DNA of 64,000 bases from a virus (IMGVR_UViG_3300020156_000001:106321-170320); one strand, 5' to 3'; positions 8,375 to 35,429 are shown, numbered from the stretch's first letter. Notes: generated from the letters alone by a model not told the origin. Numbers and translations: made by a program.

Positions 8375-8450
8375 TGGTGCGGGGTACGGGGTTCGAACCC
8401 GTGACATGCGATTTTAGAGATCGCCGCTCTACCAACTGAGCTAACTCCGC
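8375..8450 (-). tRNA. Amber suppressor tRNA (CUA)
   Basis: GCGAT-CTCTAAA-ATCGC anticodon arm, normal D and T arms, ACCA end. Confidence 0.85.
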
Positions 8451-32468: not shown

Positions 32469-32552
32469 TGGTGGGCGGCAGTAGAATCGAACTACTCCCT
32501 TAACGGCGCGGTTTTACAGACCACTTGCTGAAACCATCAGCTTTTGCCGCCC
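32469..32552 (-). tRNA. tRNA-Tyr(GUA)
   Basis: Loop CTGTAAA, variable arm, 5-bp D stem, ACCA. Confidence 0.82.
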
Positions 32553-33452: not shown

Positions 33453-33527
33453 TGGAGCGGATAGCGGGAATCGAACCCGCTTCCAAACGTTGGCAACGTT
33501 TGATAATAACCAATATAATATATCCGC
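33453..33527 (-). tRNA. tRNA-Gly(GCC)
   Basis: Loop TTGCCAA, TCCA. Confidence 0.9.
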
Positions 33528-33542
33528 ATAAGAAAGCTCATC

Positions 33543-33751
33543 TGGGCGTCGAATCGGCCGTTACTAGAGATGAACTTGCCAATGCGGAGAGCAAACCTAT
33601 GACAGTTTGCCTCCGAATTGGATCCTACACTTGAAACCAGTCCAACATTGGAGCACTCGAAGTCTCCGTCGTCCTACAAGCTGTAGTCTGCTTCTATAGG
33701 GAAGCAGCCACCTTATTCCTCAGAGCCAAGCTTTCGCTGCGCTCTTGCCCA
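33543..33751 (-). ncRNA. ~210-nt multi-hairpin RNA at the 5' end of the tRNA transcript
   Basis: TGGGC/GCCCA closure, six internal hairpins, begins right after promoter. Confidence 0.65.
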
Positions 33752-33753
33752 AC

Positions 33754-33782
33754 AGTCTAACAGTTTTGCGTTTCCGTGTCAA
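33754..33782 (-). promoter_or_regulatory. sigma70-type promoter of tRNA array
   Basis: TTGACA-17 nt-TAGACT. Confidence 0.8.
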
Positions 33783-33802
33783 CCGTTTTCTTGTTGTATC
33801 TC

Positions 33803-33832
33803 GTTATATGCTTTGTTTCTTTTCCGCGTCAA
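33803..33832 (-). promoter_or_regulatory. Second tandem sigma70-type promoter
   Basis: TTGACG-18 nt-TATAAC. Confidence 0.6.
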
Positions 33833-33885
33833 CTACTTTTTTTATTTCTTTTGAATTTTTATTTTAAGCAGTTTGCGGAAGCTAG

Positions 33886-33921
33886 AAACGACAAAACCCG
33901 GATTAGTTGCCTAATCCGGGT
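33886..33921 (-). terminator. Intrinsic terminator of leader (attenuator candidate)
   Basis: ACCCGGATTAG-GCAA-CTAATCCGGGT-TTTGTCGTTT. Confidence 0.75.
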
Positions 33922-33949
33922 CCGTTAACCTTTTTGGGGAATTCTAAAG

Positions 33950-34108
33950 TTAAATTACTTTAGTTCCTCCTCGGAAAACCGACCCGGTGGTATCTGGGCG
34001 CATATTAAAGCGGTTGCCCAGATACTGTTCGAGTGCCGCGACCACGATAGCCGCAGGCAAGGCTTTAAAGCCCTTAATTTGCCAGCTATGTTGGGTCGTT
34101 GTTTGCAC
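33950..34108 (-). CDS. Leader peptide candidate, 52 aa (not in ORF track)
   Basis: AAAGGAAA RBS, GTG start; MQTTTQHSWQIKGFKALPAAIVVAALEQYLGNRFNMRPDTTGSVFRGGTKVI. Confidence 0.7.
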   Translation of the reverse strand: MQTTTQHSWQIKGFKALPAAIVVAALEQYLGNRFNMRPDTTGSVFRGGTKVI

Positions 34109-34165
34109 GGTCAGTTTCCTTTGAATTCGTTTAAGGCGCCACGTTTGTGGACGCGTCTATGTTTA

Positions 34166-34194
34166 TATTTATAGTTCCTGTATGGAATTGTCAA
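34166..34194 (-). promoter_or_regulatory. Promoter of leader (TTGACA plus TATAAATA)
   Basis: TTGACA at 34194-34189; TATAAATA at 34173-34166. Confidence 0.55.
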
Positions 34195-34231
34195 CTACTT
34201 TAATACAGGAATTACAAATCTTTTGAACTTT

Positions 34232-34483
34232 TTATTCCTCGTCCGCACGGGGCGGCGCAAGTCCAAGCCGTTCATGTGCGAGTACTAATGCGTCGAACGT
34301 AAGTTTTGTTTCGAGTCGAAGCATATCGCGGTGAGATTTTTTCAACTCCGCTAGGCCGGCCTCAAACTGCTTACGCGAATCACGGCCCGGATTCTCCATC
34401 ATTTCCTTGCGGAGCATTGTAAGGGTGATAGTGTCCAGTTTGTACTGATACACCGCTTCTTCATATGCTTGTGTGTCAATCAT
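34232..34483 (-). CDS. Hypothetical helical protein
   Basis: 83-aa ORF. Confidence 0.65.
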   Translation of the reverse strand: MIDTQAYEEAVYQYKLDTITLTMLRKEMMENPGRDSRKQFEAGLAELKKSHRDMLRLETKLTFDALVLAHERLGLAPPRADEE

Positions 34484-34703
34484 CTTTTTTCAGCGCCTTT
34501 GTTCCGCTAATACAATAATAAGTGCCACCGGATTCAATCCGAATTAGATCATCAGGGCAGTAATAGGAACTACTGTGTATGACTGCAAATGTTATTCCAA
34601 CGACTGTAAAGCTTATGGCCCCGCCAATAATAAGTAATCCGAAGATATCTTCCCATTCTGGCAAGCTGCGAACACTGATCGTTTTTACTTTTAGCCGGCT
34701 CAT
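34476..34703 (-). CDS. Small membrane protein, TM-CP...C family
   Basis: TM then YCPDD...YYC. Confidence 0.7.
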   Translation of the reverse strand: MSRLKVKTISVRSLPEWEDIFGLLIIGGAISFTVVGITFAVIHSSSYYCPDDLIRIESGGTYYCISGTKALKKDD

Positions 34704-34897
34704 TTGGGCTCCACCACTGGGCCGCCCATGCAAACGATCTGATCGTTGTTGTACAAACGAACCTTAACAAGATCCGCTGGGCATTCCAACTGAGAGTTGG
34801 TATACTTGCCATACAGGGAACCCAATATCATTCCAATGAAGATATAGGCGATGATGGTAAAATAGTGCTTGCGAAAAAAGTCCACCACTGGGTTCAT
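34700..34897 (-). CDS. Small membrane protein, TM-CP...C family
   Basis: TM then SQLECPAD...IVC. Confidence 0.7.
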   Translation of the reverse strand: MNPVVDFFRKHYFTIIAYIFIGMILGSLYGKYTNSQLECPADLVKVRLYNNDQIVCMGGPVVEPK

Positions 34898-34955
34898 ATG
34901 GCAAGAGTCTCCAATACTTTGGAGACTCTATAATTTCTACTCCTAAGAGTCAACC

Positions 34956-35429
34956 TTATCGGATAACTCGATAGAACTTGAGGAACTCGCGAACTTCAAC
35001 AAGGTTTTCCTTAGACTTTGCAAACATGATAAGCTGCTCGGCCTTTTCCTTCCACCACACGAGAACCATGTGGGCGTTTGCAAAACCACGGCTTTCATAG
35101 CCCGCACGCAAATACTTTTCCTTTTGCGTGAACTTATTTTCAGGCTTAAAGCCCTTCATTAGTTCCAAAAGATTTGTTGTGTCGGTAACGCCGGACTCTT
35201 TACGATACTTTTCAATAAACGGACGAGGGTCGTCCATAATGTCTTGAAAAGTTAGAAAGCCTTTGTTGAACGGATACATGGCCTTGCAGCCCTGTGGTAC
35301 TTGGCGAGCTAGAGTCTCCAAGTTTACCTTTACGTCCTTGTTCTTGTCCGCGCCGTTTTGTGCGGATACTGATTTGCCCATCTCTGTGACGAGATCTAGG
35401 TTTTTTCTAATTTCGTTTGTGTTTGTCAT
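34956..35429 (-). CDS. Hypothetical protein
   Basis: 157-aa ORF. Confidence 0.7.
   Translation of the reverse strand: MTNTNEIRKNLDLVTEMGKSVSAQNGADKNKDVKVNLETLARQVPQGCKAMYPFNKGFLTFQDIMDDPRPFIEKYRKESGVTDTTNLLELMKGFKPENKFTQKEKYLRAGYESRGFANAHMVLVWWKEKAEQLIMFAKSKENLVEVREFLKFYRVIR

What the first reader, a model, noticed from the sequence alone, without database searches (positions are those of the whole stretch)
33886..34194. Candidate translation-sensing attenuator: codon-sampling leader peptide upstream of the tRNA array
Seen: promoter, RBS (AAAGGAAA), then a 52-codon GTG ORF (34108-33950) absent from the ORF track. It uses 40 distinct codons and 19 of 20 amino acids, including all four Thr, all four Ala and all four Val codons. 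Codons 41-44 carry CCGGGTCGGTT (33987-33977), which pairs 10/11 with AACGGACCCGG (33926-33916), overlapping the 5' arm of the terminator ACCCGGATTAG-GCAA-CTAATCCGGGT-TTTG. A competing TCGG-TTTT-CCGA hairpin overlaps it. Established: this 2:3 versus 3:4 layout is that of ribosome-coupled attenuators (trp/his type), which normally sense one amino acid. Inference: this leader samples nearly the whole tRNA pool, so stalling after tRNA depletion or cleavage by host anticodon nucleases would antiterminate into the phage RNA/tRNA operon. Caveat: two promoters lie downstream of the terminator, so readthrough would boost rather than gate expression.
Basis: partly seen in the sequence, partly recalled or inferred. 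Interest (0 to 1): 0.92.

Follow-up and report, generated by a model that had tools for sequence, protein, structure and literature searches.

The report
Translation-sensing attenuator before phage tRNA operon
In front of the large tRNA gene array of a 480-kb soil phage sits a small translated mini-gene inside a conserved RNA switch (ribosome-binding-site clamp, antiterminator, terminator), which most likely lets the phage send extra transcription into its tRNA genes when ribosomes run slowly; I found no published account of this kind of control for tRNA genes.

Summary
The 52-codon GTG ORF, its ribosome-binding site (SD), the terminator, the 10/11 pairing and the codon count are all as described.

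Comparison with nine relatives supports the attenuator anatomy, and I add one part. Segment r2 (codons 41-46) can pair with either of two partners:
- the ORF's own SD/start region (r1);
- the 5' flank and arm of the terminator (r3), which otherwise pairs with r4.

In all ten genomes the predicted equilibrium flips in three steps as the transcript grows: r1:r2, then r2:r3 with the SD released, then r1:r2 plus the terminator. The stop codon always sits at the tip of the antiterminator hairpin.

Several results point to an RNA element whose translation matters more than its peptide:
- Synonymous sites are far more conserved than in neighbouring genes.
- All indels are in frame.
- The peptide shows no confident fold and matches no known family.

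The codon-sampling idea is only partly supported. Diversity is extreme for this genome, but it mostly reflects absent codon bias and is not kept in all relatives. A link to tRNA nucleases is untested.

Two conserved promoters lie downstream, so readthrough can only boost tRNA transcription, not gate it.

This scan has reported similar leader attenuators before phage tRNA arrays on other DNA. I found none published.

Probability of a ribosome-mediated attenuator: about 0.6.

The parts
34166..34194 (-). P1, promoter-like site of the leader. TTGACA is at 34194-34189 and TATAAATA at 34173-34166.
   Evidence: Read. Both hexamer regions are conserved in all relatives. The spacer is atypical, so the consensus scan did not list it. 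The transcription start was not mapped.
34136..34154 (-). 5'-terminal hairpin of the leader transcript.
   Evidence: A hairpin is predicted at this place in all ten relatives, built from different stem sequences.
34106..34122 (-). r1: the SD (AAAGGAAA) and GTG start. It pairs with r2 and acts as anti-antiterminator and SD clamp.
   Evidence: MFE helix 34119-34109 with 33984-33974. The consensus helix is kept in nine sequences with compensatory A-U to U-A and C-G to U-A changes. The best partner of the SD is the same site in all ten loci.
33950..34108 (-). Leader ORF, 52 codons, 40 distinct codons.
   Evidence: Listed; codon counts. Homologues of 52-71 codons occur in nine relatives, and every indel is a multiple of 3. 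dN/dS is about 0.2-1.0. Synonymous sites are far more conserved than in neighbouring genes.
33990..34089 (-). Internal hairpins inside the ORF: 34089-34047, 34043-34033 region and 34025-33990.
   Evidence: Predicted; kept in the consensus structure. The whole transcript folds with z = -6.9 against shuffles.
33973..33987 (-). r2: the switch segment (codons 41-46). It pairs with either r1 or r3.
33936..33970 (-). Apical hairpin S of the antiterminator. The stop codon TAA (33952-33950) lies inside it.
   Evidence: Present in all ten relatives with different apical stem sequences, and the stop codon is always near the tip. The lower stem has three compensatory pairs.
33911..33932 (-). r3: the flank (AGGTTAAC) plus the 5' arm of the terminator. 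It pairs with r2 (antiterminator) or with r4.
   Evidence: The flank is conserved although neutral sites between these genomes are saturated.
33891..33910 (-). GCAA loop, r4 (3' arm of the terminator) and U-run.
   Evidence: Found by the scan. Stem pairs change in a compensatory way in L008, L009, L010 and L207. The hairpin alone folds at -21.1 kcal/mol.
33754..33832 (-). P2 (TTGACG 33832-33827, TATAAC 33808-33803) and P3 (TTGACA-17-TAGACT, 33782-33754): tandem promoters of the ncRNA/tRNA operon downstream of the terminator.
   Evidence: P3 was found (10/12 matches, with an extended -10). Both are conserved in relatives.
33453..33747 (-). Start of the downstream operon: a conserved ncRNA of about 210 nt, then tRNA-Gly(GCC), the first gene of the array.
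   Evidence: The ncRNA matches no Rfam family.

Best explanation
This is a ribosome-mediated (leader-peptide) transcription attenuator placed upstream of the phage's ncRNA/tRNA operon.

Shown by computation. Transcription from P1 yields a highly structured leader. Four segments can pair in mutually exclusive ways:
- r1 (SD and start codon) with r2 (codons 41-46);
- r2 with r3 (an extended antiterminator hairpin with the stop codon at its tip);
- r3 with r4 (an intrinsic terminator).

Inferred mechanism, by the position of the ribosome:
- No ribosome loads. r1:r2 forms as soon as r2 is made, r3 stays free, the terminator forms, and the released RNA has a closed SD.
- A ribosome keeps pace with the polymerase. 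It covers r2 or sits on the stop codon and melts the antiterminator, so transcription terminates.
- A ribosome has started but lags anywhere in codons 1 to about 35. r1:r2 is prevented, r2 pairs with r3 as r3 emerges, the terminator cannot form, and P1 transcription runs on through P2/P3 into the ncRNA and the tRNA genes.

Consequence. Slow decoding would raise tRNA transcription above the basal level set by P2 and P3, and fast decoding would lower it. That is negative feedback on the tRNA supply. The leader has no run of one codon and reads as a generalist sensor of elongation speed.
For: 1. The elements are real and stronger than chance.
- The transcript folds at -107.7 kcal/mol against -73.4 +/- 5.0 for shuffles (z = -6.9).
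- The r2:r3 duplex has P about 0.004.

2. The module recurs in nine relatives, always in the order promoter, SD, ORF, terminator, two promoters, ncRNA, tRNA-Gly array.

3. Divergence between these genomes is saturated at neutral sites.
- Four neighbouring genes compared with Phosso show pS about 0.8. The leader ORF shows pS 0.34 and pN 0.08.
- Invariance of r2 and r3 therefore indicates selection.

4. In each of the ten genomes the best partner of r3 is the same r2 site (P 0.000-0.020), and the best partner of the SD is that same site (P 0.004-0.068).

5. Covariation.
- r1:r2 shows A-U to U-A in three sequences and C-G to U-A in one.
- The terminator stem has compensatory pairs.
- Where the terminator arm changes (L008, L009, L010, L207), the bases just upstream of r2 become complementary to the new bases.
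- The lower apical stem has three compensatory pairs. 92% of cells are paired against 17-57% in slid registers.
- Apical stems differ in sequence but are always present.

6. The equilibrium flips with transcript length. r1:r2 has P about 0.8 until the r3 core is made. Then r2:r3 has P 0.99 with the SD released. Then r1:r2 returns together with the terminator. The same three stages occur in all ten genomes.

7. Translation matters more than the product.
- The SD and start are conserved (GTG, or ATG in two relatives).
- All indels are multiples of 3.
- The stop codon is always at the antiterminator tip.
- dN/dS is about 0.5.
- Conservation is nearly flat across codon positions.
- AlphaFold gives pLDDT 54.
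- There is no Pfam or PHROG hit at a useful level.
Against: - There is no experimental evidence of termination, readthrough or translation.
- Two conserved promoters lie between the terminator and the operon, so the operon does not depend on readthrough.
- The core r2:r3 helix is invariant, so it offers no covariation of its own. The formal covariation score is only moderately above shuffles (8/500), and the ten sequences are related.
- At full length the terminator state is more stable by about 14 kcal/mol, and it stays the minimum even with r1 blocked. Antitermination must therefore be kinetic, which I could not simulate.
- There are no regulatory codon runs.
- Some residues (W, GF, RPDT, GS) persist in distant relatives, so a peptide function is not excluded.
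- P1 has an atypical spacer.
Confidence: 0.6

Rival explanations
1. This is an autonomous small-protein gene. A promoter, a 52-aa protein gene and its own terminator happen to lie next to the tRNA operon. The r1:r2 clamp limits translation of a stable, structured mRNA, the terminator insulates P2/P3, and r2:r3 has no role in termination.
For: - Phosso annotates the ORF as a CDS.
- A residue motif (W, GF, A, E, Y, G, PDT, GS) survives in distant relatives.
- Synonymous sites still change about four times faster than non-synonymous ones against Phosso.
- The operon has its own promoters.
Against: - r2:r3 complementarity is significant in all ten genomes and follows changes in the terminator arm. 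A plain gene has no need for that.
- The three-stage energy ladder is conserved.
- dN/dS is about 0.5, with flat conservation across codon positions.
- There is no confident fold and no family hit.
- The conserved residues coincide with helix strands.
Confidence: 0.17
2. The terminated leader is itself the product: a stable RNA of about 270 nt with a closed SD. Either it acts in trans, as the Sinorhizobium trp attenuator RNA rnTrpL and its peptide do, or it is a translationally silent mRNA activated later by 3' processing, in the manner of hok. This reading could coexist with attenuation.
For: - The RNA is extremely stable (z = -6.9).
- It has a 5'-terminal hairpin and a GNRA-capped terminator.
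- The SD is sequestered in the full-length form.
- Attenuator-derived sRNAs and functional leader peptides have a precedent (PMC7298713, PMC7968998, listed).
Against: - No target and no antisense partner was identified.
- The peptide is not hydrophobic enough to be a membrane toxin (sequence).
- A trans-acting RNA needs no in-frame ORF, and no stop codon at the antiterminator tip.
- r2:r3 exists only before r4 is made, which points to a decision taken during transcription.
Confidence: 0.12
3. The terminator/antiterminator choice is set by a factor other than the ribosome, such as a protein, a tRNA or a small molecule binding the leader. The ORF would be incidental.
For: The leader holds several conserved hairpins with no assigned role. 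It sits in front of tRNA genes, as T-box leaders sit in front of synthetase genes.
Against: - No Rfam family matches, T-box included, even at E up to 10.
- About ten independent indels are all in frame, and the SD and start are conserved.
- The stop codon keeps its position in all ten genomes.
Confidence: 0.06

Closest known systems
Leader-peptide transcription attenuators of amino-acid operons (trpL, hisL, thrL, leuL, pheL, ilv leaders; textbook knowledge; modelling in PMC1183508)
   Same: Both have a promoter-proximal translated mini-ORF and four segments with 1:2, 2:3 and 3:4 alternatives. Both have an intrinsic terminator whose 5' arm is shared with the antiterminator. Both predict 'superattenuation' without translation, and a decision set by the position of the ribosome.
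   Different: - Here segment 1 is the SD/start itself, not codons inside the ORF.
- There is no run of cognate regulatory codons, and the ORF is long (52-71 codons).
- The controlled genes are an ncRNA and tRNAs of a phage, not biosynthetic enzymes.
- Two further promoters follow the terminator.
- No Rfam leader family matches.
Ribosome-mediated attenuators that sense general translation stress, such as BmrB upstream of bmrCD in Bacillus subtilis (PMC4191407)
   Same: The leader ORF lacks amino-acid-specific codon runs. Any slowing of the ribosome on the leader favours the antiterminator and switches on the downstream genes.
   Different: Those leaders control resistance or efflux genes in bacterial chromosomes and respond to antibiotics. 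Here the output is the phage's own tRNA supply, which would close a feedback loop on decoding speed.
Leader-peptide attenuators before phage tRNA arrays noted earlier in this scan (for example e1-4047519 and e1-3450868; AI notes, unpublished)
   Same: A promoter, mini-ORF and switchable terminator cassette lies directly upstream of tRNA genes in a giant phage.
   Different: Those leaders are about 30 codons long and are said to match the codons of the few tRNAs that follow. This one is a 52-codon generalist in front of a near-complete tRNA set. It has an SD clamp and extra promoters downstream. I tested none of those notes.
SD sequestration by long-range pairing in hok-type mRNAs and in the maturation gene of RNA phage MS2 (own knowledge)
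   Same: The 5' SD pairs with a distal segment, so the finished RNA is closed and ribosomes can load only on the nascent chain.
   Different: Those cases have no terminator/antiterminator competition. The peptide here is not a membrane toxin, and no antisense RNA was found.

Membership tests
Leader-peptide (ribosome-mediated) transcription attenuator | A short ORF with SD and start codon in the 5' leader of the transcript | tested here: met
   The ORF is 34108..33950 with AAGGA 8-9 nt upstream. The start position is conserved (GTG in eight genomes, ATG in two). Indels are in frame.
Leader-peptide (ribosome-mediated) transcription attenuator | An intrinsic terminator between the leader ORF and the controlled genes | tested here: met
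   A 13-pair stem with a GNRA loop and a U-run. The stem shows compensatory changes in relatives.
Leader-peptide (ribosome-mediated) transcription attenuator | An antiterminator that shares bases with the terminator 5' arm and overlaps or abuts the ORF | tested here: met
   r2:r3 is -19 to -27 kcal/mol, significant in all ten genomes and at the same site. It reaches P 0.99 before r4 is made.
Leader-peptide (ribosome-mediated) transcription attenuator | An anti-antiterminator (1:2) that forms without translation | tested here: met
   r1 (SD/start) pairs with r2, with covariation. This differs from trp, where segment 1 lies inside the ORF.
Leader-peptide (ribosome-mediated) transcription attenuator | A cluster of regulatory codons cognate to the controlled pathway | tested here: not met
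   There is no codon run. Thr-Thr-Thr at codons 3-5 is not conserved. The codon set is broad instead.
Leader-peptide (ribosome-mediated) transcription attenuator | Readthrough rises when the ribosome stalls in the leader | not testable with these tools
   This needs Term-seq or reporter assays. RNA-library contigs of relatives cross the terminator, but they may derive from DNA.
T-box riboswitch | Specifier loop and T-box antiterminator sequence (Rfam RF00230) | tested here: not met
   No Rfam hit on 33500-34200, even at E up to 10.
Type I toxin mRNA (hok-like) | A small hydrophobic membrane peptide | tested here: not met
   The longest apolar stretch is about 11 residues. Relatives carry R, E and Q in that stretch.
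Type I toxin mRNA (hok-like) | A cis- or trans-encoded antisense RNA | not tested
   Only one weak plus-strand promoter-like site was seen at 34148-34175. I did not follow it up.
Known protein family for the 52-aa product | A significant profile match or a confident fold | tested here: not met
   Pfam gives nothing and the best PHROGs hit has E = 0.44. AlphaFold pLDDT is 54.5 and pTM 0.20.

The most novel reading that the evidence does not exclude
A jumbo phage carries a generalist sensor of translation speed. A 52-codon test ORF uses codons read by 31 of the phage's 36 tRNA species and is wired to an SD clamp, an antiterminator and a terminator. Any shortage of usable tRNA, including cleavage of tRNAs by host defence nucleases, would raise transcription of the phage's own tRNA operon, and a restored supply would shut it down again. 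That would be the first feedback loop from decoding speed to tRNA gene transcription.
Probability: 0.4. Interest if true: 0.9.

Novelty: new variant of a known kind. Interest (0 to 1): 0.8.

Why it matters
Why phages carry tRNA genes is an old question. Recent work shows that phage tRNAs can replace host tRNAs destroyed by defence nucleases (PMC10264068, PMC11555353, PMC12409363). How phages regulate these tRNAs is essentially unknown.

A leader-peptide attenuator in front of a tRNA operon would mean the phage measures decoding speed directly and adjusts its tRNA supply. Leader-peptide attenuation is so far described for amino-acid and resistance operons.

The element is compact and conserved, and it occurs in a cultured phage, Sinorhizobium phage Phosso. 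The idea is therefore directly testable. It would also supply a portable part that converts translation speed into transcription.

Tried and rejected
**Searches that gave nothing**
- Rfam found nothing on the leader or the ncRNA, even at E up to 10. A sub-threshold 'drum' hit (E = 0.17) overlaps the terminator and I treat it as chance.
- Pfam and PHROGs found no family for the peptide.
- AlphaFold with an eight-sequence alignment gave no confident fold.
- The protein-pattern scan of viral contigs found nothing, and so did an exact terminator pattern.
- tblastn against isolated phages found only Phosso.
- The paper on the related Sinorhizobium jumbo phage AP-J-162 mentions no promoters, terminators or attenuation. 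Two literature searches found no phage or tRNA-operon leader attenuator.

**RNA evidence, not decisive**
- Public runs hold only small shares of the region.
- Contigs of relatives in three RNA libraries run from the ORF's 3' part across the terminator. Contigs show no transcript ends, and DNA carry-over cannot be excluded.

**Ideas set aside**
- Codon matching to the first tRNA block: by a hand count from the output, about 59% of leader residues are served by that block. That is about what I would expect from typical amino-acid frequencies (own estimate, not computed).
- A strict genome-wide terminator control found only four hairpins, too few to use.

Full report
**Context**

The window is bases 106321-170320 of a 480,347-bp virus record with direct terminal repeats. 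It carries 49 tRNA genes, all on the minus strand; the whole genome has 57, in 36 anticodon species. The nearest named relative is Sinorhizobium phage Phosso, 469 kb. A published jumbo phage of the same host, AP-J-162, has 66 tRNA genes, and its paper says nothing about their regulation.

**1. The observation**

- TTGACA and TATAAATA;
- AAAGGAAA followed by the GTG at 34108;
- a 52-codon ORF ending with TAA at 33952-33950;
- CCGGGTCGGTT at 33987-33977 and AACGGACCCGG at 33926-33916, pairing 10/11;
- a 13-pair terminator hairpin with a GCAA loop and a U-run, which the scan tool also finds.

The ORF has 40 distinct codons and 19 amino-acid kinds, and it fills all four codons of the Thr, Ala and Val boxes.

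Both features exceed chance:
- Only 0.03% of 52-codon windows in the phage's long ORFs reach 40 codons (mean 30.1, sd 3.4). For the first 52 codons of small putative genes the figure is 0.5%.
- The best duplex between the upstream region and the terminator's 5' flank and arm is -22.8 kcal/mol, against -15.4 +/- 2.3 for shuffles (P about 0.004).

**2. Relatives**

Protein and profile searches found homologous mini-ORFs of 52-71 codons in nine other phage genomes or contigs. These are Phosso, L003/L004, L005, L006, L007, L008, L009, L010/L011 and L207.

In every one the order is the same: promoter, SD, ORF, terminator, two promoters, a conserved ncRNA, then tRNA-Gly and a tRNA array.

These genomes are far apart. 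Against Phosso, four neighbouring genes have saturated synonymous sites (pS about 0.8, pN 0.29-0.51). The leader ORF has pS 0.34 and pN 0.08. The blastn match to Phosso also begins exactly at the intergenic region in front of P1. Conservation of non-coding and synonymous positions in the leader is therefore a sign of selection at the RNA level.

**3. The RNA**

The transcript is exceptionally structured: -107.7 kcal/mol against -73.4 +/- 5.0 for shuffles, z = -6.9.

In its minimum-energy form the SD/start region (r1, 34119-34109) pairs with codons 42-46 (33984-33974). So r2 has two alternative partners.
- The consensus fold of nine sequences keeps r1:r2. One pair is A-U in five sequences and U-A in three. 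Another is C-G, U-G or U-A.
It consists of 7 pairs, a mismatch, 3 pairs, a 2x2 loop and 2 pairs. It is topped by a hairpin (S) that contains the stop codon.
- As one extended hairpin it is worth -33.3 kcal/mol. In the other nine genomes the value is -25.6 to -35.5. Their apical stems differ in sequence, and the stop codon is always near the tip.

Comparative support for the pairings:
- In each of the ten genomes the best partner of r3 anywhere upstream is the homologous r2 site (P 0.000-0.020). The best partner of the SD inside the ORF is that same site (P 0.004-0.068).
- Where the terminator arm has changed, its partner in r4 changed with it. The bases just 5' of the r2 core also became complementary to the new r3 bases. 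A G appears opposite the new C in L008, L009 and L010, and only there.
- A covariance-model alignment of the r2-S-r3 hairpin has 92% of cells paired, against 17-57% in slid registers. Three pairs are compensatory. The covariation score is reached by 8 of 500 shuffles.
- The 7-pair core is invariant, so it gives no covariation. Support for it rests on invariance against a saturated background.

**4. The energy ladder**

I computed partition functions for growing transcripts.

| Transcript made so far | Dominant pairing |
|---|---|
| Up to just before the r3 core | r1:r2, P about 0.8 |
| r3 core complete, r4 absent | r2:r3, P 0.99, SD largely released |
| r4 complete | r1:r2 again, plus the terminator at P 0.95 |

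The same three-stage flip occurs in all ten genomes, including the most divergent ones. At full length the terminator state is about 14 kcal/mol more stable, and it stays the minimum even with r1 blocked. Antitermination therefore has to be a kinetic outcome, as it is in classical attenuators. I could not simulate the kinetics.

**5. Is the ORF translated, and does its product matter?**

For translation:
- The SD and start position are conserved (GTG in eight genomes, ATG in two).
- About ten indels in the ORF, one of them a long insertion in L010, are all multiples of three.
- No premature stop occurs in ten diverged copies.
- The stop codon keeps its place in the structure.

Against a functional protein:
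- dN/dS is mostly 0.3-0.9.
- Conservation is almost flat across codon positions: 0.79/0.83/0.78 in unpaired parts and 0.85/0.83/0.76 in paired parts.
- The conserved residue blocks coincide with helix strands.
- There is no Pfam hit and no useful PHROG hit.
- AlphaFold gives pLDDT 54.5.

A few residues (W, GF, RPDT, GS) persist in distant relatives even where the codons differ, so some constraint on the peptide cannot be excluded.

**6. Codon sampling**

The leader's codons are read by 31 of the 36 phage anticodon species, against 23.8 +/- 3.1 for ordinary windows; 0.5% of windows reach 31. Most of this comes from a varied amino-acid composition together with an absence of codon bias.
- With the amino-acid sequence fixed and the genome's codon usage, the expectation is 34.3 +/- 2.0 distinct codons (P = 0.002).
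- Under uniform synonymous usage it is 36.1 +/- 1.9 (P = 0.03).
- Among relatives the excess over the uniform null is present in some (L003, L006, L207). It is absent in others (L005, L008), and L010 falls below expectation.

The rare codons GGG, CGA and GGA sit in r2 and S, where the structure dictates the bases. The breadth is therefore real in this genome, but it is not shown to be a selected trait.

**7. Mechanism**

The geometry fits the classical logic.
- r2 ends about 20 nt before the stop codon in all the genomes.
- A ribosome on r2, or on the stop codon, keeps r2 and r3 apart and melts S, so the terminator forms.
- With no ribosome, r1:r2 forms first and again leaves r3 free for r4.
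- A ribosome that has started but lags in codons 1 to about 35 prevents r1:r2 and leaves r2 free for r3. That is the readthrough state.

Readthrough from P1 would add to transcription from P2 and P3, which are conserved and close to consensus. The effect is a boost, not a gate, much as regulated and basal tandem promoters work in stable-RNA operons (own knowledge).

What is shown: the elements, their conservation and their energetics. What is inferred: the role of the ribosome, the kinetics and the physiological signal.

**8. Comparison with known systems**

The closest known systems are the leader-peptide attenuators of amino-acid operons, and the stress-sensing leaders such as BmrB upstream of bmrCD (PMC4191407). 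The membership table lists what is met: ORF, terminator, antiterminator and anti-antiterminator. It also lists what is not: regulatory codon runs and a biosynthetic target. No Rfam leader family or T-box matches.

Two literature searches found no leader-peptide attenuator described for tRNA operons or for phages. Earlier reports in this scan describe similar cassettes before tRNA arrays in other giant phages. Those are unpublished AI notes that I did not test. This case differs from them in being a long generalist leader with an SD clamp and extra promoters downstream.

**9. Verdict**

| Reading | Probability |
|---|---|
| Ribosome-mediated attenuator feeding the tRNA operon | about 0.6 |
| Plain small gene with a structured mRNA | about 0.17 |
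| Leader RNA or peptide as a product in its own right | about 0.12 |
| Factor-controlled switch | about 0.06 |

Novelty: a new variant of a known kind. Interest: 0.8. The element is directly testable in a cultured phage.

Noticed in passing
window 33530-33747 (-): A conserved ncRNA of about 210 nt lies between promoter P3 and tRNA-Gly. It is present at the same place in all relatives; L010 has a longer version that shares only the first hairpin. It matches no Rfam family, even at E up to 10.
   Followed up: partly
L006:4881-5657: In one relative, a gene with T5orf172/MUG113 domains (typical of homing-endonuclease-like genes) is inserted between the leader/ncRNA region and tRNA-Gly. The leader module upstream stays intact.
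   Followed up: no
window 8375-8450 (-): ARAGORN calls a tRNA with anticodon CTA (reported as Pyl), which would be an amber-suppressor-type tRNA in the array. The AP-J-162 paper reports the same kind of tRNA.
   Followed up: no
window 32473-32552 (-): Rfam gives a sub-threshold tRNA-Sec match (35.6 bits; the gathering score is 47) where ARAGORN calls no tRNA. This looks like an atypical tRNA-like gene inside the array.
   Followed up: no
window 34232-35429 (-) versus L001:2863-4004: The protein genes just upstream of the leader are syntenic with Phosso but share only 30-58% amino-acid identity and have saturated synonymous sites. The non-coding leader, the promoters and the ncRNA are about 78% identical at the DNA level.
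   Followed up: yes
window 33827-33840, 33777-33785 and 34189-34200 (-): All three promoters share an extended -35 context ((A)GTAGTTGAC or GGTTGAC) preceded by A-rich tracts. This may be a promoter class specific to this phage group. I did not count it genome-wide.
   Followed up: no
window 33885-34024 (relatives, in RNA libraries X21, X22, X24): Short contigs of related phages in three metatranscriptome or RNA libraries (wastewater, soil, lake) cover the ORF's 3' part and the terminator and continue beyond it. This shows that relatives are widespread, but not that they are transcribed.
   Followed up: partly
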